Shown one piece after another: positions 1-5,513 of a stretch of 5,513 nt of DNA. Source of the DNA: a virus (taxonomy: Duplodnaviria; Heunggongvirae; Uroviricota; Caudoviricetes); the IMG/VR virus record IMGVR_UViG_2585427764_000006; one strand, written 5' to 3'. The number at the start of each line of letters is the position of its first letter. The stretch's first letter is position 1. The notes under the pieces are model-generated. The model saw only the letters and a program-made list of their open reading frames with translations, did no database searches and was not told the origin of the DNA. The translations under genes were made by a program, and so were the position numbers.

Positions 1-2
1 CG

Positions 3-320
3 GCAAAAGCGTTCGCATACCTGCTGAAACAGTGGGATGCACTGAACGTGTACTGCAGTAATGGCTGGGTGGAAATCGACAACAACATCGCAGAGAACGC
101 CTTACGGGGAGTGGCCGTAGGCCGGAAAAACTGGATGTTCGCGGGTTCCGACAGCGGTGGTGAACATGCGGCGGTGTTGTACTCGCTGATCGGCACATGC
201 CGTCTGAACAATGTGGAGCCAGAAAAGTGGCTGCGTTACGTCATTGAACATATCCAGGACTGGCCGGCAAACCGGGTACGCGATCTGTTGCCCTGGAAAG
301 TTGATCTGAGCTCTCAGTAA
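3..320 (+). CDS. IS66-family transposase, C-terminal fragment (5' end outside window)
   Basis: The frame is open from position 3 (AKAFAYLLKQWDALNVYCSNGWVEIDNNIAENALRGVAVGRKNWMFAGSDSGGEHAAVLYSLIGTCRLNNVEPEKWLRYV...). The EIDNN-AE-ALR...GRKNW-FAGS motif block is, from memory, characteristic of the C-terminus of IS66-family DDE transposases. The GTG at 48 in the ORF track is not the true start. Confidence 0.85.
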   Translation, partial: AKAFAYLLKQWDALNVYCSNGWVEIDNNIAENALRGVAVGRKNWMFAGSDSGGEHAAVLYSLIGTCRLNNVEPEKWLRYVIEHIQDWPANRVRDLLPWKVDLSSQ

Positions 321-321
321 A

Positions 322-350
322 TATCAATACGGTTCTGACGAGTCGCTTAC
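322..350 (-). repeat. Candidate IS66 terminal inverted repeat (right end)
   Basis: The minus strand reads 5'-GTAAGCGACTCGTCAGAACCGTATTGATAT from position 350. The exact IR length cannot be fixed without the left end. Confidence 0.5.
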
Positions 351-351
351 C

Positions 352-1479
352 TTCAGCATCCGGACGTTCGCCAATTTTCGCCTCCCACGTCTCACCGAGC
401 GTGGTGTTTACGAAGGTTTTACGTTTTCCCGTATCCCCTTTCGTTTTCATCCAGTCTTTGACAATCTGCACCCAGGTGGTGAACGGGCTGTACACCGTCC
501 AGATGTGAAAGGTCACGCTGTCCGGCGGCTCAATCTCTTCACCGGATGACGAAAACCAGAGAATGCCATCACGGGTCCAGATCCCGGTCTTTTCGCAGAT
601 ATAACGGGCATCAGTGAAGTCCAGCTCCTGCTGGCGGATGACGCAGGCATTATGCTCGCAGAGATAAAACACGCTGGAGGGGTCATCCGGCGTCCATTTG
701 AGGCCAAACGGCGTCTCTTTGTCGCCAAATTTAAGATACTGCTCCTCCCCGCAGTGCGGGCAGGCAACATGAAAACGCATAAAATGCGGGGATTCACTGG
801 CTGCACGCTCAATCTGGCAGGTGCCTCTCACTTTGGGCGTGGAGCCACGGATGGACTTTGGCCAGACCGAGCCTTCAATACGTTTGTCGCCAAGGAACGT
901 CGGAGAGCCTTCCTGTTCAATATCCTCATCAAAGGCAGCAAGTTCATCATAACCCGCCACATCCACCGACTTTTCACGGTAGTTTTTTGCCGCTTTACCG
1001 CCCAGGCACCAGAAGCCACGACCATTGGAAAAACGCTTCATAGTGAGCGTGTTATCCCGGTGCTTTTTGCCATACCACGGAGCCAGCGCCAGCAGCGACG
1101 GAATATCGCGGATGGTCGGCTCAACGTGGGTTTTCATAAAGTTCTCGGCATCACCATCCGTCGGCAACCAGATAAGGGTGTTGCGCTGCTTATGCTCTAT
1201 GAAGTAGGCATAAACACCCAGCAGCATTTTGGAATAACCAACACGGGCAGACTTCACCACATTCACCTCGCGGACGTAGTCACTGCCCATCGCATTCATG
1301 ATGGCCCGCTGAAAGGGCAGTGTTTCCCAGCGCCCTTCCTGGTATGCGGATTCTTTCGGGAGATAGTAATTGGCATCCGCCCATTCAACGGCGGTCTGTG
1401 GCTCCGGCCGGAACAGTGAGCGAAGCCCGGCGCGGACAAAATGCCGCAGCCTGTTAACCTGACTGTTCGATATATTCAC
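352..1479 (-). pseudogene. A: Terminase large subunit (lambda gpA-like), N-terminal 376 codons, interrupted by the IS66 insertion
   Basis: The translation MNISNSQVNRLRHFVRAGLRSLFRPEPQTAVEWADANYYLPKES...TLGETWEAKIGERPDAE matches lambda gpA as I recall it. Full-length gpA is about 641 aa. After codon 376 the ORF runs into IS-derived sequence (GKRLVRTVLIFTESSDQ...) and stops at 241. The start overlaps the Nu1 3' end by 26 nt, as in lambda. Confidence 0.9.
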
Positions 1480-1999
1480 TCAGCAACCCCGGTATCAGTT
1501 CATCCAGCGCGGCTGCTTTGTTCATGGCTTTGATGATATCCCGTTTCAGGAAATCAACATGTCGGTTTTCCAGTTCCGGAAAACGCCGCTGCACCGACAG
1601 GGGGATCCCGTCGAGAATACTGGCAATTTCACCTGCGATCCGCGACAGCACGAAAGTACAGAATGCGGTTTCCACCACTTCAGCGGAGTCTCTGGCATTC
1701 TTCAGTTCCTGTGCGTCGGCCTGCGCACGCGTAAGTCGATGGCGTTCGTACTCAATAGTCCCTGGCTGGAGATCTGTCTCGCTGGCCTGCCGCAGTTCTT
1801 CAACTTCCCGGCGCAGCTTTTCGTTCTCAATTTCAGCATCCCTTTCGGCATACCATCTTATAACGGCGGCAGAGTCATAAAGCACCTCATTACCCTTGCC
1901 ACCGCCTCGCAGAACGGGCATTCCCTGTTCCTGCCAGTTCTGAATGGTACGGATACTCGCACCGAAAATGTCAGCCAGCTGCTTTTTGTTGACTTCCAT
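1454..1999 (-). CDS. nu1: Terminase small subunit (lambda gpNu1-like), apparently intact
   Basis: The 181-aa product MEVNKKQLADIFGASIRTIQNWQEQGMPVLRGGGKGNEVLYDSAAV... is near-identical to lambda Nu1 as recalled. It begins with the winged-helix DNA-binding region and lies immediately downstream of cosB. Confidence 0.95.
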   Translation of the reverse strand: MEVNKKQLADIFGASIRTIQNWQEQGMPVLRGGGKGNEVLYDSAAVIRWYAERDAEIENEKLRREVEELRQASETDLQPGTIEYERHRLTRAQADAQELKNARDSAEVVETAFCTFVLSRIAGEIASILDGIPLSVQRRFPELENRHVDFLKRDIIKAMNKAAALDELIPGLLSEYIEQSG

Positions 2000-2024
2000 T
2001 GTTCATTCCACGGACAAAAACAGA

Positions 2025-2079
2025 GAAAGGAAACGACAGAGGCCAAAAAGCCCGTTTTCAGCACCTGTCGTTTCCTTTC
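2025..2079 (-). promoter_or_regulatory. cosB terminase-binding R elements (R1/R2-like inverted pair)
   Basis: GAAAGGAAACGACAG at 2025-2039 and its exact reverse complement CTGTCGTTTCCTTTC at 2065-2079 form a perfect 15-bp inverted pair separated by 25 bp. They sit where lambda cosB R1/R2 sit relative to the Nu1 start. An R3-like copy (GAAGAACGGAAATG) is at about 2121-2138. Confidence 0.7.
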
Positions 2080-2176
2080 TTTTCAGGGGGTATTTTAAAT
2101 AAAAACATTAAGTTACAACGAAGAAGAACGGAAATGCCTTAAACCGGAAAATTTTCATAAATAGCGAAAACCCGCG

Positions 2177-2188
2177 AGGTCGCCGCCC
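2177..2188 (-). other. cosN (12-nt cohesive-end segment of the cos site)
   Basis: The plus strand reads AGGTCGCCGCCC, the reverse complement of the lambda cohesive end GGGCGGCGACCT. The flanks also match the lambda ends as recalled (CGCGGGTTTTCGCTATTTATGAAAATTTTCCGG on one side, CCGACAGGTTACG on the other). Confidence 0.85.
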
Positions 2189-2220
2189 CGTAACCTGTCG
2201 GATCGCCGGAAAGGACCCGC
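2189..2220 (-). promoter_or_regulatory. cosQ-containing region (packaging termination element) adjacent to cosN
   Basis: CGTAACCTGTCGGATCGCCGGAAAGGACCCGC is the reverse complement of the sequence that directly precedes cosN at the lambda right end, with apparently one substitution relative to my recollection of lambda. Confidence 0.5.
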
Positions 2221-2224
2221 AAAA

Positions 2225-2239
2225 TGATAATAATTATCA
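2225..2239. promoter_or_regulatory. Fur-box-like 7-1-7 palindrome (candidate iron-responsive operator)
   Basis: TGATAATAATTATCA is a perfect inverted repeat, TGATAAT-n-ATTATCA, matching the core Fur box motif. It lies about 150 bp upstream of the DUF3950 start codon on the plus strand. Confidence 0.4.
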
Positions 2240-2387
2240 TCTGCATGTCACAACGTGCATCTACGCCATCAAACCACGTCAAATAATCAATTATGACGCA
2301 GGTATCATATTAATTGATCTGCATCAACTTAACGTAAAAACAACTTCAGACAATACAAATCAGCGACACTGAATACGGGACAACCTC

Positions 2388-2621
2388 ATGTCAACGAAGA
2401 ACAGAACCCGCAGAACAACAACCCGCAACATCCGCTTTCCTAACCAAATGATTGAACAAATTAACATCGCTCTTGATCAAAAAGGGTCCGGGAATTTCTC
2501 AGCCTGGGTCATTGAAGCCTGCCGCCGGAGACTGTGCTCAGAAAAAAGAGTTTCTCCTGAAGCAAACAAAGAAAAGAGTGACATTACTGAATTGCTCAGA
2601 AAACAGATCAGACCAGATTGA
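2388..2621 (+). CDS. Small basic protein, DUF3950 family (YnfO/YlcI-like prophage protein)
   Basis: The 77-aa ORF MSTKNRTRRTTTRNIRFPNQMIEQINIALDQKGSGNFSAWVIEACRRRL... resembles the small proteins encoded next to noh/Nu1 in E. coli cryptic prophages. Its orientation is opposite to the late genes and the local sequence is AT-rich. Confidence 0.8.
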   Translation: MSTKNRTRRTTTRNIRFPNQMIEQINIALDQKGSGNFSAWVIEACRRRLCSEKRVSPEANKEKSDITELLRKQIRPD

Positions 2622-2677
2622 AGCAATTTAGATAATCGTGCAGACTACACCCCTCATATCACATGGAAGGTACTACA

Positions 2678-3088
2678 ATGGCTCAGGTTGCCATTTTTAA
2701 ACAAATATTCAATAAAGTGCGAAATAATTTAAACTATCACTGGTTTTATTCTGAACTAAAACGTCACAATGTCTCACATTACATTTACTATTTAGCCACA
2801 GAGAATATTCATCTTGTTCTTGAAAACGATAATACGGTTTTAATAAAAGGACAGGGTAAGGTTGTAAATGTAAGATTTTCAAAAAATAAATGCCTTATAG
2901 AAGCCACCTTAAAAGGATTCAAATCAGGAGAGTTATCATTTTACGAATACAGGAAAAATCTTGCTACAGCAGGGGTTTTCAGATGGATTACAAATATCCA
3001 CGAAAACAAAAGGTATTACTATACCTTTGATAATTCATTACTCTTTACTGAGAACATTCAGAACACTACACAAATATTTCCGCACTAA
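2678..3088 (+). CDS. DUF1398 family protein (YbcV/YdfO-like prophage protein)
   Basis: The ORF track gives 2663-3088, but the second ATG at 2678 is preceded by GGAAGG with about 6 nt spacing, so [14 protein letters not shown]... is the likelier start. The C-terminal block [38 protein letters not shown] is characteristic of this family as I recall it. GC content is low, about 25-30% by eye. Confidence 0.8.
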
Positions 3089-3344
3089 ATCATAACGTCC
3101 GGTTTCTTCCGTGCCAGAACCGGACTCGCTGGCATGATGAAATATGTGTACCCGGTAACCCCGGTGTGCATCGTTTTTGATTATTCCCACACACTCGCGC
3201 AGAAGGAGTTCCCCGTCGGGCTACGGTCTCTGTTAATACGGGAATACGGCGACGATACAGCGCATGATGTGTCAGGCTTGAATACCTTTATCCTTTAAAA
3301 GGGATATCAGTTAAGTTATCCCGTGTAGGGTATAAGCCATTATC

Positions 3345-3373
3345 AAAGCCACTCTGTAGGAAGTGGCTTTTGT
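3345..3373 (+). terminator. Candidate intrinsic terminator for the plus-strand moron genes
   Basis: AAAGCCACT (3345-3353) pairs with AGTGGCTTT (3362-3370) around an 8-nt loop, followed by TTTTG. The GC core is only 6 bp, so this is weak to moderate. Confidence 0.3.
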
Positions 3374-3378
3374 AATGG

Positions 3379-3405
3379 CAATAAAAAGCCCCGCGAATGC
3401 GAGGC
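3379..3405 (-). terminator. Candidate rho-independent terminator downstream of the Rz/Rz1 lysis genes
   Basis: On the minus strand GCCTCGC-ATTC-GCGGGGC forms a 7-bp GC-rich stem (one G-U pair) followed directly by TTTTTAT. It sits about 175 bp downstream of the Rz stop. Confidence 0.45.
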
Positions 3406-3579
3406 TAAATCCTGGTATTTGTAATGACTGGCTCTTATCTCAACGCAGCCCCTTACCGCGCGCAAAATGCTCAATATCAAGCATCAGCAATGAGATGTTT
3501 AATCTGGATTCACTCCAGAAGTGAGCACCACCCTGTCTACAGAGCCAGATGTGAAGGATGATGAGTAAAATTATCGCTA

Positions 3580-4047
3580 TCATCGAAGGCATTGCGTCCT
3601 GATGTATTCCTGAAGCGTTCTCAGTGCTGTTTGGTCGCGGATAATTCCGTCCCGGATACCGAGAACGTTTCGTCCAGCAACTGGAGAGAGTTCGACGGTG
3701 GCATCATTGCCCATGCCGGAGGCGCTGGAGGTTTCGGCTGAGGATGGCACAGGGCATTTTCCTTTGACGAGCACCCGACCACCATTATCAAGCTTGCGCC
3801 GAAGAGCATCATTTTCAGCTTTCGCATCAGCTAACTCCTTCGTGTATTTATCATCGAGTGCATCAGCATCACGCTGGCGCTGCTGCATGTCAGTAATGGT
3901 GGCGTTCGCCTTCTCCAGTTCACTGGCCTTGTTATCGCGCTGTTCTTTGTAGGCGATTGCATTATCACGGTAATGATTAACAGCCCATGACAGGCAGACG
4001 ATGATGCAGATAACCAGAGCGGAGATAATCGCGGTTACCCTGCTCAT
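3580..4047 (-). CDS. Rz: Rz i-spanin (inner-membrane spanin subunit)
   Basis: [31 protein letters not shown]... matches the lambda Rz N-terminus with its single N-terminal transmembrane helix and coiled-coil region. The probable start is the ATG at 4047-4045, which overlaps the R stop as ATGA; the ORF track starts 4 codons earlier. The C-terminal third diverges from lambda Rz. Confidence 0.9.
3621..3827 (-). CDS. Rz1: Rz1 o-spanin (outer-membrane lipoprotein), embedded in the +1 frame of Rz
   Basis: [21 protein letters not shown]... has a lipobox (VVGC) followed by a proline-rich segment ([11 protein letters not shown]), and lies wholly inside Rz in another frame, the classic embedded-spanin architecture. 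Confidence 0.8.
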
Positions 4048-4541
4048 TGTTGCCCCCACAAACAGACCTCACGCTCAATCTCACGACGAGTCATCAGGCC
4101 TTTCCATTGCTTACCGCCAGCGTATGCCCAGCGACGTAGCTGGTCACATGCGCCCTTGATATCGCCCTGGTTTATTTTGCGAAGAAGAGTAGATGTTCTG
4201 AAATTGCCTGCGCCCACGTTATAGACGAACGAGTAAAGAGCGCCGCGCGTTGTTTCCGGTATATCGACTTTGATGTACGGGTTAATTTGTCTGGCTACCG
4301 TGGCAAGGTCTTTATTCAGGAGGGCTTTGCATTCTGCTTCGGTATACGTTTTACCGGGAATGATGTCTTTTCCTGTATGCCCGTGACATACAGTCCATAC
4401 GCCAACGATATCTTTGTATGGTATGTAGCTGACACCTTCCAGACCATCGTTACCACTTGGGCCAGTGATTAACACTGATGCTATAGCAATTGCTCCGCCA
4501 CCAATAGCAGCAGCAACGGCTTTTCGTAATGATGGAGGCAT
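4044..4541 (-). CDS. R: SAR endolysin (phage 21 R-type lysozyme)
   Basis: The 165-aa product has an N-terminal Gly/Ala-rich weakly hydrophobic signal-anchor-release domain ([18 protein letters not shown]), then a T4-lysozyme-like catalytic triad at E35, D44 and T50. It is near-identical to phage 21 R as recalled. The start overlaps the S stop (TAATG). Confidence 0.93.
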
Positions 4542-4756
4542 TATTCACCTCTCGCAGCCTTGCGCTTATCTTCTTTAATCTTGAAATAAAGGTTTGTCAG
4601 GTACGTCAGCAGGCCAAATACCAAGCTACCCAGCACACCTATTGCTGCCCACTGTGAGGGCGTGACTTTATCGAGCAACTGTAAAAACCAGTAGCCAGCA
4701 CTGCCTGCGGAGGTGCCGTAGGCAATGCCCGTTGTTAACTTATCCATGGATTTCAT
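4541..4756 (-). CDS. S: Pinholin (phage 21 S-type), dual-start class II holin
   Basis: The 71-aa product [26 protein letters not shown]... has the dual-start motif Met1-Lys-Ser-Met4 (antiholin and holin forms), two transmembrane segments and a charged C-terminus. A strong Shine-Dalgarno GGAGGTGAGGC lies immediately upstream. Confidence 0.93.
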
Positions 4757-4850
4757 AGCCTCACCTCCGCAAATAACGGATGGTGTACACGGTTCGGAAC
4801 GAAGAGGAAAGGTATAGAAGTTACATTAGCGTAAGGCTTGAACATCTATT

Positions 4851-4882
4851 CAAAAAGAAAAACGCCGCGATTATTCTGGCGT
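4851..4882 (-). terminator. Candidate tR'-like intrinsic terminator upstream of S
   Basis: On the minus strand ACGCC-(11-nt loop)-GGCGT is followed by TTTTTCTTTTTG, about 105 nt upstream of the S start codon. The stem is short (5 bp), so this is tentative. The position resembles the lambda late-leader terminator that Q antiterminates. Confidence 0.3.
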
Positions 4883-5002
4883 AGCTGAAAGCATCATACA
4901 ATTATCAAATACGAAAATTACAAAATCATTAAAACGCATCACGTTACATCATGTCTTTTTCTAAAAAAAATCTTGATGAATATTGATGGTGCGTATTACC
5001 GT

Positions 5003-5092
5003 GAAGGAGATCGGTGAGTAACATCGATGGAGATCGGTTCGTGTCACTTTCACAGAACCGTTTTTAAATTACCTTCACTGATCTCCTTCGGT
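5003..5092. repeat. IS21-family terminal repeat cluster
   Basis: GGAGATCGGT occurs as direct copies at 5006-5015 and 5029-5038, the first as GAAGGAGATCGGT from 5003. An inverted copy (GATCTCCTTC, reverse complement of GAAGGAGATC) lies at 5081-5090, overlapping the last istB codons. Confidence 0.5.
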
Positions 5093-5512
5093 CAACGGAG
5101 ATTGTATTTTCCGCATTGATTCTCCTTGAAGTTCGATCTTGATACTGCCATGAACCAGTCGATCTAGGATGGCATCCGCATGTGTGGAGTCTCCGATCAT
5201 TTTGTACCAGTTTTCCACCGGCAACTGGCTCACTACGATGATTGAGCCTCGTTGGTACATCAGATCCACTATTTCCAGCAGGTCGCTACGCTGTTCTGAT
5301 GAGAGAGGTTCCAGCCCCCAGTCATCCAGAAGCAGCAGATCGCTATTATTCAGCCTGGTCAAAAGTTTGCTGTATCTTCCATCAGCATGCCCCTGATAGC
5401 ACTGTTCCATCAGCGCTTTAAGGCGATAATAGTAGACCTTGTATCCCTGTCGGCAGGCATTATGACCAAGTGCACATGCCAGGAACGTTTTACCGCTGCC
5501 GGTGGCCCCGGT
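5075..5512 (-). CDS. istB: IS21-family IstB ATP-binding helper protein, C-terminal portion (5' end outside window)
   Basis: The frame is open to the window edge: TGATGSGKTFLACALGHNACRQGYKVYYYRLKALMEQCYQ... contains a Walker A P-loop (GATGSGKT), then a Walker B-like LLLLDDWG. The ORF track shows only the part from the internal Met at 5410. Confidence 0.88.
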   Translation of the reverse strand, partial: TGATGSGKTFLACALGHNACRQGYKVYYYRLKALMEQCYQGHADGRYSKLLTRLNNSDLLLLDDWGLEPLSSEQRSDLLEIVDLMYQRGSIIVVSQLPVENWYKMIGDSTHADAILDRLVHGSIKIELQGESMRKIQSPLTEGDQ

Positions 5513-5513
5513 C

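What the first reader, a model, noticed from the sequence alone, without database searches (positions are those of the whole stretch)
1454..2220. Intact lambda-type cos site and Nu1 next to a dead terminase: a candidate for packaging in trans
cosN (AGGTCGCCGCCC at 2177-2188), the flanking cosQ-like sequence, a perfect 15-bp R1/R2 inverted pair in cosB and a full-length Nu1 are all preserved, although the large subunit is disrupted. A superinfecting or co-resident lambda-specificity phage could recognise this cos and package adjacent chromosomal DNA (cos-dependent transduction), or Nu1 from this locus could interfere with a helper's packaging. From memory there are small differences from lambda: the R3-like element reads ...GGAAATG rather than ...GGAAACG, and there is one substitution in cosQ. 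These may or may not affect function.
Basis: partly seen in the sequence, partly recalled or inferred. Interest (0 to 1): 0.5.

Follow-up and report, generated by a model that had tools for sequence, protein, structure and literature searches.

The report
Ordinary lambda cos in IS-broken prophage
This is the normal, wild-type DNA-packaging site (cos) and small terminase gene of a lambda-like prophage whose large terminase gene was recently split by an insertion sequence; a helper phage could probably cut it, but this situation is common in E. coli and already documented.

Summary
Window 2000-2240 (minus strand) is a complete lambda-type cos: cosQ, cosN, I2, R3, I1, R2 and R1. Next to it lie a full 181-aa Nu1 and a gpA gene cut after codon 376 by an IS66-family element.

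Two details need correcting. The R1/R2 inverted repeat is 16 bp, not 15. No substitution lies inside the 7-bp cosQ; the changes are 2 bp outside it and in the cosQ-cosN spacer.

The R3 change (lambda G54A) is real. It lies just outside the TerS contact segment (bp 55-63) and away from the known defective positions (56, 58, 59). The plaque-panel phage PhiR42_1 carries the same R3 allele and an identical Nu1 protein.

Window 351-4989 is 100% identical to an apparently complete ~47-kb prophage at the lambda attachment site of E. coli 101EVA. The window is a whole draft contig bounded by IS repeats, so what lies beyond the IS is unknown.

Lambda-type cos occurs in 4591 of 5426 complete E. coli genomes. 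Use of a defective prophage's cos in trans is already documented for K-12 DLP12, O157 Sakai Sp4/Sp14 and the helper/passive-prophage assay. Transduction of adjacent host DNA from a single cos is limited because termination needs a second cos. Nu1 interference has no support. The finding is ordinary and of low interest.

The parts
1..350 (+). Right end of an IS66-family (ISCro1-like) insertion sequence: transposase C-terminus (ORF 48-320) plus 30 bp to the terminal repeat ...CGCTTAC
   Evidence: Pfam DDE_Tnp_IS66 and IS66_C. 99.4% identical to an ISCro1-family copy in strain Z1323HEC0010, whose homology ends at the same IS base.
351..1479 (-). Terminase large subunit gpA, codons 1-376 of 641. 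The ORF reads on into the IS to window 241, adding 36 unrelated residues.
   Evidence: Translation compared with lambda gpA. Identical to residues 1-376 of the 641-aa gpA of E. coli 101EVA. Pfam GpA_ATPase is complete, but GpA_nuclease covers only profile positions 2-59 of 294.
1454..1999 (-). Nu1 (terminase small subunit, TerS), intact, 181 aa
   Evidence: Pfam Phage_Nu1 1-164/164, E = 2e-101. Three substitutions relative to lambda (K48R, A75T, L132I). Protein identical to Nu1 of phage PhiR42_1 and of the 101EVA prophage.
2024..2039 (-). cosB R1 (lambda bp 151-166), identical to lambda
   Evidence: Alignment; perfect 16-bp inverted repeat with R2.
2065..2080 (-). cosB R2 (lambda bp 109-124), identical to lambda. 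The R2-R1 spacer carries G134A and is 1 bp shorter (lambda A137 deleted).
   Evidence: The 1-bp deletion is shared by all 9 other phages aligned.
2103..2115 (-). Core of IHF site I1 (about lambda bp 74-86), identical to lambda. Flanking changes are C72T and A73G.
   Evidence: Alignment. The placement of the IHF core is my inference from the WATCAANNNNTTR consensus.
2124..2139 (-). cosB R3 (lambda bp 50-65) with one substitution, G54A, at window 2135. The TerS contact segment bp 55-63 (window 2126-2134) is identical to lambda.
   Evidence: The same allele is in phage PhiR42_1 and in 76 IMG/VR loci.
2139..2171 (-). I2 spacer (lambda bp 18-50), identical to lambda, so the cosN-cosB spacing is unchanged
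2175..2190 (-). cosN: 12-nt cohesive-end sequence at 2177-2188 plus 2 flanking bp on each side, identical to lambda
2212..2218 (-). cosQ GGGTCCT (lambda 48473-48479), identical to lambda. The neighbouring changes at 2220 and 2205 are outside it.
   Evidence: The cosQ coordinates are from memory of Wieczorek and Feiss 2001.
2388..3088 (+). Two small accessory genes between cos and the lysis cassette: DUF3950 (YlcI/YnfO-like, 2388-2621) and DUF1398 (YbcV-like, 2663-3088)
3580..4756 (-). Intact lysis cassette: holin (4541-4756), lysozyme (4044-4541), and Rz (3580-4059) with embedded Rz1 (3621-3827)
   Evidence: ORFs; Pfam families listed for the same contig; PGAP names in identical prophages.
4981..5513 (-). 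End of an IS21-family element (ISEc12-like, istB). It is inserted about 230 bp upstream of the holin, in the 3' end of an HTH gene. The boundary is between 4981 and 4990.

Best explanation
The region is the unmodified, natural-allele packaging module (cosQ-cosN-I2-R3-I1-R2-R1 plus Nu1) of a lambda-like prophage. The prophage was inactivated very recently by two IS insertions. An IS66-family element lies in gpA after codon 376, and an IS21-family element lies upstream of the holin.

Nothing about cos or Nu1 has been adapted. They are intact because too little time has passed for decay, and possibly because exchange with live lambdoid phages refreshes them.

Inferred mechanism: the locus cannot make an endonuclease- and portal-competent TerL itself. 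If a co-resident or superinfecting phage of lambda packaging specificity supplies Nu1/gpA and IHF is present, terminase should assemble on R3/R2. It should then nick cosN and translocate DNA toward Nu1 and A, that is toward lower window coordinates.

A mature transducing particle results only if a second, same-orientation cos lies about 38-51 kb downstream. That could happen after excision and replication of the whole prophage, or in a tandem arrangement. Otherwise the result is an unterminated, tail-less head.

Shown here: sequence integrity, allele identity with live phages, and truncation of gpA. Inferred: cleavage and packaging in trans.
For: - cosN, I2, the R3 contact segment, the I1 core, R2, R1 and cosQ are all identical to lambda, with unchanged cosN-cosB spacing.
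- R3 is bp 50-65 and TerS contacts bp 55-63. Defective mutations map to bp 56, 58 and 59, not 54.
- PhiR42_1 belongs to the PhiR temperate-phage series; other members are used in plaquing assays. It has the same G54A and an identical Nu1 protein.
- At most differing positions the window carries the majority natural allele.
- The three R3 alleles are all common in IMG/VR: GCA 76 loci, GTG 91, GCG at least 120. GCA lies next to a 641-aa gpA in 19 loci.
- Window 351-4989 is 100% identical to a prophage with a full lambda gene set at attB-lambda in strain 101EVA.
- The IS junction is absent from 5426 complete E. coli genomes and from the GTDB species representatives. It is found only in two draft assemblies, so it is a private, recent event.
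- Precedents: lambda recombinants that took up DLP12 nu1 are active, so DLP12 nu1 works in lambda, and by map position those recombinants presumably carry DLP12 cos too. IS-disrupted Sp4 is packaged, most likely by Sp14 terminase, through an identical cos. Helper terminase packages repressed tandem prophages from cos to cos in the chromosome.
Against: - No experiment has been done on this allele.
- G54A changes a base that is conserved in all three lambda R sequences, and a wing or minor-groove contact 5' of the major-groove contacts has been proposed.
- C72T next to I1 is rare: 8 of 276 natural sequences.
- The viability of PhiR42_1 is inferred from its GenBank record (propagation host ECOR13) and from the use of sister PhiR phages in plaquing assays. 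I found no statement about this phage itself.
- The rest of the prophage in the source strain has not been seen.
Confidence: 0.8

Rival explanations
1. The cos is functionally impaired. G54A in R3, together with C72T/A73G beside I1 and the 1-bp shorter R2-R1 spacer, weakens TerS/IHF assembly, so helper terminase cuts poorly or only with IHF.
For: R3 is the most critical R sequence, and a single transition at bp 58 makes lambda IHF-dependent. G54 is conserved in lambda R3, R2 and R1.
Against: - Bp 54 lies outside the NMR contact segment 55-63 and outside the genetically defined positions 56, 58 and 59.
- G54A, A73G, T102C, G134A and the A137 deletion all occur together in phage PhiR42_1.
- The A137 deletion is in all 9 other phages aligned.
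- The exact 241-bp allele occurs in a prophage with an uninterrupted packaging and head gene set.
- R1 has only an accessory role.
Confidence: 0.07
2. The cos-Nu1-A' module is selectively retained. It might act as a helper-dependent 'hitcher' that promotes its own transfer or that of flanking genes. Alternatively it might act as an anti-phage element, in which the truncated TerL (Nu1-binding and ATPase parts, no nuclease or portal-binding end) or surplus Nu1 poisons an incoming lambda-like phage's terminase.
For: - In IMG/VR loci, all 38 cases with a shortened gpA ORF keep a 181-aa Nu1. Their Nu1 polymorphism is not enriched for amino-acid changes: 41 synonymous to 17 non-synonymous, against 45 to 26 next to intact A.
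- K-12 also keeps nohD and cos beside a truncated A.
- Cos-bearing satellites that exploit lambda-like terminases exist.
Against: - The truncation points are heterogeneous (29 lengths in 38 loci), and this junction is private to two drafts. No conserved truncated form exists.
- Nu1 is identical to a live phage's TerS and cosB is the phage's own. PICIs instead use a distinct cosB and an Rpp adaptor.
- From established lambda genetics, A amber fragments are recessive in complementation.
- Some short ORFs in draft data may be sequencing frameshifts.
- Late-gene expression here must cross an IS21-family insertion.
Confidence: 0.06
3. The prophage is not really dead for transfer. The whole element still excises and replicates, and a co-resident lambda-specificity prophage supplies gpA. 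It then moves as a unit, cos to cos on concatemers, rather than mobilising adjacent host DNA.
For: This is what was reported for Sp4 in O157 Sakai. The uninterrupted relative in 101EVA has int, xis, O, P, Q and all head and tail genes. E. coli genomes with any lambda-type cos carry a median of 2 copies.
Against: The relative is about 47 kb. Adding about 2.7 kb of IS66-type element and an IS21-type element (family-typical 2-2.5 kb, not measured here) gives roughly 52 kb. From established knowledge, the upper packaging limit of lambda is about 105% of 48.5 kb. The rest of the prophage and any helper in the source strain are unseen because the window is a whole draft contig.
Confidence: 0.15

Closest known systems
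Bacteriophage lambda cos and natural lambda-like phages such as PhiR42_1 (PV340562)
   Same: All subsites are present in the same order and spacing. cosQ, cosN, I2, R3 bp 55-63, the I1 core, R2 and R1 are identical to lambda. The R3 G54A allele and the Nu1 protein are identical to PhiR42_1.
   Different: Eleven point differences from lab lambda within bp 48446-182, nearly all being the commoner natural allele. Here the adjacent gpA is cut by an IS.
E. coli K-12 cryptic prophage DLP12 (essD-rrrD-rzpD ... ylcI-cos-nohD-aaaD')
   Same: A lambda-type cos and a 181-aa Nu1 homologue lie beside a truncated gpA. DLP12 nu1 has been shown to work when recombined into lambda, and cos is the suggested cause of a recombination hotspot there.
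   Different: - K-12 has an old deletion leaving only about 100 codons of A fused to tail-fibre genes.
- It has a different R3 allele (C53T), other cos differences, borD and ybcW.
- It sits at the argU site (from established knowledge).
- The window's nearest relative is a complete prophage at attB-lambda.
O157:H7 Sakai prophage Sp4, packaged by the terminase of Sp14 (Asadulghani et al. 2009)
   Same: A lambdoid prophage whose terminase is knocked out by an insertion sequence (ISEc8) keeps a cos identical to that of a co-resident phage. It is found packaged in DNase-resistant particles.
   Different: In Sp4 the small subunit gene is hit; here it is the large subunit. For the window no co-resident helper and no packaging data are known.
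Feiss helper phage / passive prophage packaging assay
   Same: Terminase from a heteroimmune helper starts at a chromosomal cos of a repressed prophage and packages in situ.
   Different: That assay works because a second cos lies one genome length downstream, in tandem prophages. A single cos, as far as the window shows, gives no termination.
cos-type phage-inducible chromosomal islands of E. coli (for example EcCICFT073, with Rpp)
   Same: Chromosomal elements that carry a lambda-like cosN and are packaged by helper lambda-like terminase.
   Different: PICIs have their own integrase and replication module, a cosB of different sequence, and an Rpp protein that retargets helper TerS. The window has the phage's own cosB and TerS and no such adaptor.

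Membership tests
lambda-type cos site | 12-nt cohesive-end sequence GGGCGGCGACCT with conserved flanking bp (cosN) | tested here: met
   Identical to lambda at window 2175-2190.
lambda-type cos site | 7-bp cosQ upstream of cosN at lambda spacing | tested here: met
   GGGTCCT at 2212-2218 with exactly 20 bp to ACGGGGCGG, as in lambda. cosQ coordinates are from memory and are supported by the conservation profile.
lambda-type cos site | Unchanged cosN-cosB spacing (I2, bp 18-50); even 3-bp changes are deleterious | tested here: met
   Lambda bp 1-53 identical, and no indel before bp 137.
lambda-type cos site | R3 with lambda-specific contact bases (bp 55-63; key bp 56, 58, 59) | tested here: met
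   Bp 55-65 identical. The single change is at bp 54, outside the contact segment.
lambda-type cos site | IHF site I1 between R3 and R2, followed by R2 and R1 in inverted orientation | tested here: met
   I1 core identical. R2 and R1 are 16/16 identical to lambda and form a perfect inverted repeat. IHF binding itself was not tested.
lambda-type cos site | Is nicked by lambda terminase and supports packaging | not testable with these tools
   Indirect support only: the identical allele occurs in an uninterrupted prophage, and a near-identical one in phage PhiR42_1.
Nu1 / lambda TerS (Pfam PF07471) | Full-length match, with lambda-type DNA-binding N-terminal end and gpA-binding C-terminal end | tested here: met
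   Profile match 1-164/164, 336.7 bits. Residues 1-47 and 133-181 are identical to lambda. The recognition helix (17-24) and wing (31-39) positions are.
Functional gpA / lambda TerL | ATPase domain plus complete C-terminal endonuclease domain and portal-binding end | tested here: not met
   Only residues 1-376 of 641 are present. The nuclease profile is covered at positions 2-59 of 294.
K-12-type DLP12 cryptic prophage | Same remnant: A deleted after about 100 codons and joined to tfaD, borD present, K-12 cos allele | tested here: not met
   A extends to codon 376 and is cut by an IS, no bor gene is present, and the R3 allele differs. The nohD/rrrD/essD names in hits are PGAP similarity labels. 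The integration site of the source is unknown.
cos-type PICI / satellite | A cosB distinct from the helper's, plus an Rpp-like adaptor next to cos | tested here: not met
   cosB is the phage's own, and the gene next to cos is an ordinary Nu1.

The most novel reading that the evidence does not exclude
IS- or deletion-truncated lambda-like prophages may keep the cos-Nu1-A' module because it is useful. It could be an entry point that lets resident or incoming lambda-specificity phages start packaging host DNA next to the remnant. Or it could be a decoy or poison, where a chromosomal cos titrates terminase and gpA(1-376) forms dead complexes, lowering the yield of superinfecting lambda-like phages. 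The only hint is that all 38 shortened-A loci sampled keep a full Nu1 ORF with no excess of amino-acid polymorphism.
Probability: 0.05. Interest if true: 0.5.

Novelty: already known. Interest (0 to 1): 0.15.

Why it matters
It matters little. The main value is as a cautionary and bookkeeping result. Lambda-type cos sites are present in about 85% of complete E. coli genomes, often in more than one copy. Any lambda-specificity terminase therefore meets chromosomal cos sites routinely, and these stimulate recombination with incoming phages and occasionally allow rescue of defective prophages. This locus adds one more recent example. It also shows that the lab-lambda sequence is a minority allele at most variable cos positions, so differences from lambda should not be read as damage.

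Tried and rejected
- Exact search for the IS66/gpA junction in the GTDB species-representative genomes gave 0 hits. No complete E. coli genome has the junction either. The source was instead found by exact-protein lookup of the chimeric gpA ORF: two draft contigs, one of which is the window itself.
- I first treated the locus as the K-12 DLP12 remnant because the hits were labelled nohD/rrrD/essD. I rejected this after comparing with MG1655 and finding a 100% identical, complete prophage at attB-lambda.
- The primary papers on cosQ (Wieczorek and Feiss 2001) and on the PhiR phage panel (Brenes and Laub 2025) are not held. The cosQ coordinates therefore rest on memory plus conservation data. 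PhiR42_1 viability rests on its GenBank record and on the use of sister phages in plaquing assays.
- Rfam scan of the whole window found no family.
- The promoter/terminator scan of 1900-2700 found nothing above the shuffled expectation, so there is no evidence for an independent Nu1 promoter.
- My first cosQ regular expression used the wrong spacing and found nothing. It was corrected.
- The R3 bp 55-63 invariance is forced by the search pattern and is not used as evidence.
Full report
**What the window is.** The 5513-bp window is an entire contig (JORX01000098.1) of a draft assembly, GCA_000713415.1. A second draft, GCA_000713265.1, has the same arrangement. Both ends of the window lie in insertion sequences.
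- Positions 1-350 are the right end of an IS66-family, ISCro1-like element. Its homology to an independent copy in another strain stops at exactly the same IS base.
- From about 4981-4990 onward the window is an ISEc12-like IS21-family element.
- Between them, all on the minus strand, lies the late region of a lambda-like prophage: holin, lysozyme, Rz/Rz1, cos, Nu1 and the first 376 codons of gpA. Two small plus-strand genes (DUF1398, DUF3950) sit between the lysis genes and cos.

**The observation.** I aligned the reverse complement of the window to the joined right and left ends of lambda NC_001416.
- Everything from lambda 48487 through bp 53 is identical. That includes cosN with its flanking bases and the I2 spacer that sets the cosN-cosB distance.
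- The 7-bp cosQ (GGGTCCT, window 2212-2218) is intact at lambda spacing.
- R2 (2065-2080) and R1 (2024-2039) are identical to lambda and form a perfect 16-bp inverted repeat. This matches the published statement that R2 and R1 share 16 bp.
- Nu1 is a full 181-aa ORF with three substitutions (K48R, A75T, L132I) and a full-length Pfam match.
- gpA matches lambda through residue 376 and then reads into the IS for 36 codons. Its ATPase domain is complete, but only positions 2-59 of the 294-position nuclease profile remain. The locus therefore cannot supply the endonuclease or the portal-binding C-terminal end.

The recalled 'substitution in cosQ' is not. The nearest changes are at lambda 48471, two bases outside cosQ, and at 48486, in the cosQ-cosN spacer.

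**Are the differences from lambda damage?** Within the minimal functional cos fragment used by the Feiss laboratory (lambda 48446-182) the window differs at eleven positions.

The literature places R3 at bp 50-65 and the TerS-contacted segment at bp 55-63. Packaging-relevant mutations are at bp 56, 58 and 59. R1 is only accessory. G54A lies just outside the contact segment.

Natural variation is more telling.
- I aligned nine lambda-family phages from GenBank. PhiR42_1 carries G54A together with A73G, T102C, G134A and the 1-bp deletion at 137. All nine share the 137 deletion and the 48486 change, and eight of the nine share the 48471 A-to-G change.
- PhiR42_1 belongs to the PhiR temperate-phage series. 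Other members of that series are used in efficiency-of-plaquing assays. Its Nu1 protein is identical to the window's.
- Exact-pattern scans of IMG/VR found three R3 alleles at bp 53/54: 76 loci with the window's GCA, 91 with the K-12 GTG, and at least 120 with lambda's GCG. The GCA allele lies next to a 641-aa gpA ORF in 19 loci.
- Across 276 natural cos sequences the window carries the majority allele at most positions where it differs from lab lambda. The minority alleles are 48448C (28%), 54A (26%) and 72T (3%).
- The exact 241-bp allele occurs at 100% identity in at least a dozen complete E. coli genomes.

**Age and origin.** Window 351-4989 is 100% identical, in one piece, to a prophage of E. 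coli 101EVA. That prophage has an uninterrupted 641-aa gpA, portal, capsid and tail genes. It sits at the classical lambda attachment site between ybhC and ybhB-bioA. It carries int, xis, exo/bet/gam, a repressor, cro, cII, O, P, Q and the full set of structural genes, and spans roughly 47 kb.

The IS66/gpA junction is absent from 5426 complete E. coli genomes and from the GTDB species representatives. The disruption is therefore a private, recent event in a normal lambda-like prophage.

This is not the ancient K-12 DLP12 remnant, despite the nohD/rrrD/essD labels that PGAP gives by similarity. MG1655 DLP12 has a different R3 allele (C53T), retains only about 100 codons of A, and has borD and ybcW.

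Because the window is a repeat-bounded draft contig, whether the rest of A and the head genes follow the IS is unknown.

**How it most likely works.** Every defined recognition determinant is lambda-type: the Nu1 recognition helix and wing, R3 bp 55-63, the I1 core, R2, R1, and the cosN-cosB spacing. So a terminase of lambda specificity supplied in trans should bind cosB, nick cosN, and translocate toward Nu1 and A, that is toward lower window coordinates. This is inferred, not shown.

There are three direct precedents.
- In K-12, lambda recombines about 100-fold more often with DLP12 than with Qin or Rac. Half of the junctions lie next to cos, which the authors suggest reflects terminase breaks. 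Recombinants that replaced lambda nu1 with the DLP12 copy were active. By map position, those recombinants must also carry DLP12 cos.
- In O157 Sakai, prophage Sp4 has its nu1 disrupted by ISEc8 yet is found in particles, most likely through Sp14 terminase acting on an identical cos.
- The standard helper/passive-prophage assay packages repressed tandem prophages directly from the chromosome, at 1-4 per cell.

cosQ and cosN of a downstream cos are required. Without them translocation does not stop, and protruding DNA prevents tail joining.

A productive outcome therefore needs one of two things. Either the whole element excises and replicates, or a second same-orientation cos lies about 38-51 kb downstream. 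For the first route, the unit length with both IS elements would be roughly 52 kb. From established knowledge of lambda chromosome-length limits, that is at or above the capacity of the lambda head.

**Nu1 interference.** I found nothing to support it. The protein is identical to a live phage's TerS. Its N- and C-terminal ends are identical to lambda Nu1. The K-12 allele, which shares A75T and L132I, functions in lambda.

Expression would in any case depend on Q-antiterminated late transcription, which here must cross the IS21-family insertion. No independent promoter signal stands out.

**How common this is.** A 241-bp query of this cos matches 4591 of 5426 complete E. coli genomes. Genomes with any match carry a median of two copies and up to eight. 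The Feiss laboratory explicitly avoids K-12 indicator strains because of cos-bearing defective prophages. The configuration is routine.

**A side observation.** Among 138 IMG/VR loci where the gpA ORF could be read to a stop, 38 are shortened, at 29 different lengths. All 38 retain a 181-aa Nu1, with no excess of amino-acid polymorphism.

This could reflect recency, gene conversion from live phages, or frameshift errors in draft assemblies. It is the only hint toward a selected role for orphan cos-Nu1 modules, and I rate that reading at about 5%.

**Verdict.** The biology is already known and the interest is low.

Noticed in passing
IMG/VR loci L019-L294 (cos-bearing viral contigs): 38 of 138 loci with a readable gpA ORF have a shortened gpA, at 29 different lengths. 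All 38 keep a 181-aa Nu1. The ratio of synonymous-only to amino-acid-changing polymorphic codons in Nu1 is 41:17, against 45:26 next to intact gpA. Recency, recombination with live phages and draft-assembly frameshifts were not separated.
   Followed up: partly
window 2000-2260 compared with lambda 48444-136: Lab lambda, not the window, carries the minority allele at most variable cos positions (48444, 48459, 48467, 48471, 48486, 73, 102, 134) among 276 natural lambda-type cos sequences. R3 bp 53/54 is a three-allele polymorphism (GCG, GTG, GCA).
   Followed up: yes
window 1-350 and 4981-5513: The window is a complete draft contig that ends in repeats on both sides: an ISCro1-like IS66 element and an ISEc12-like IS21 element. 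The ISEc12-like element lies in the 3' end of an HTH gene upstream of the holin, between the Q/late-promoter region and the lysis-cos-Nu1 genes.
   Followed up: partly
E. coli 101EVA NZ_CP138393.1, about 4,132,900-4,180,000 (L016, L306, L307): A prophage 100% identical to window 351-4989 sits at the classical lambda attB between ybhC and ybhB-bioA. It has a full lambda-like gene set plus accessory genes: a GGDEF protein next to the tail-fibre genes, and lipocalin and YbgA-family genes between Q and the holin.
   Followed up: partly
window 241-350 (minus strand): The gpA reading frame continues 36 codons into the IS66 terminal repeat before a stop. Gene callers therefore report a 412-aa chimeric 'terminase' that looks less truncated than it is.
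   Followed up: yes
window 2139-2282 (minus strand): A 47-aa ORF spanning cosN and cosQ is annotated as a hypothetical protein in several phage records, for example PhiR42_1 XSB42614.1. It is almost certainly a spurious call across the packaging site.
   Followed up: no
window 2388-2621 compared with lambda 48150-48310: The DUF3950 (YlcI/YnfO-like) gene is complete here. Lambda homology begins only partway through it (near lambda 48150), so lab lambda appears to retain only the N-terminal part of this gene just left of cos.
   Followed up: no
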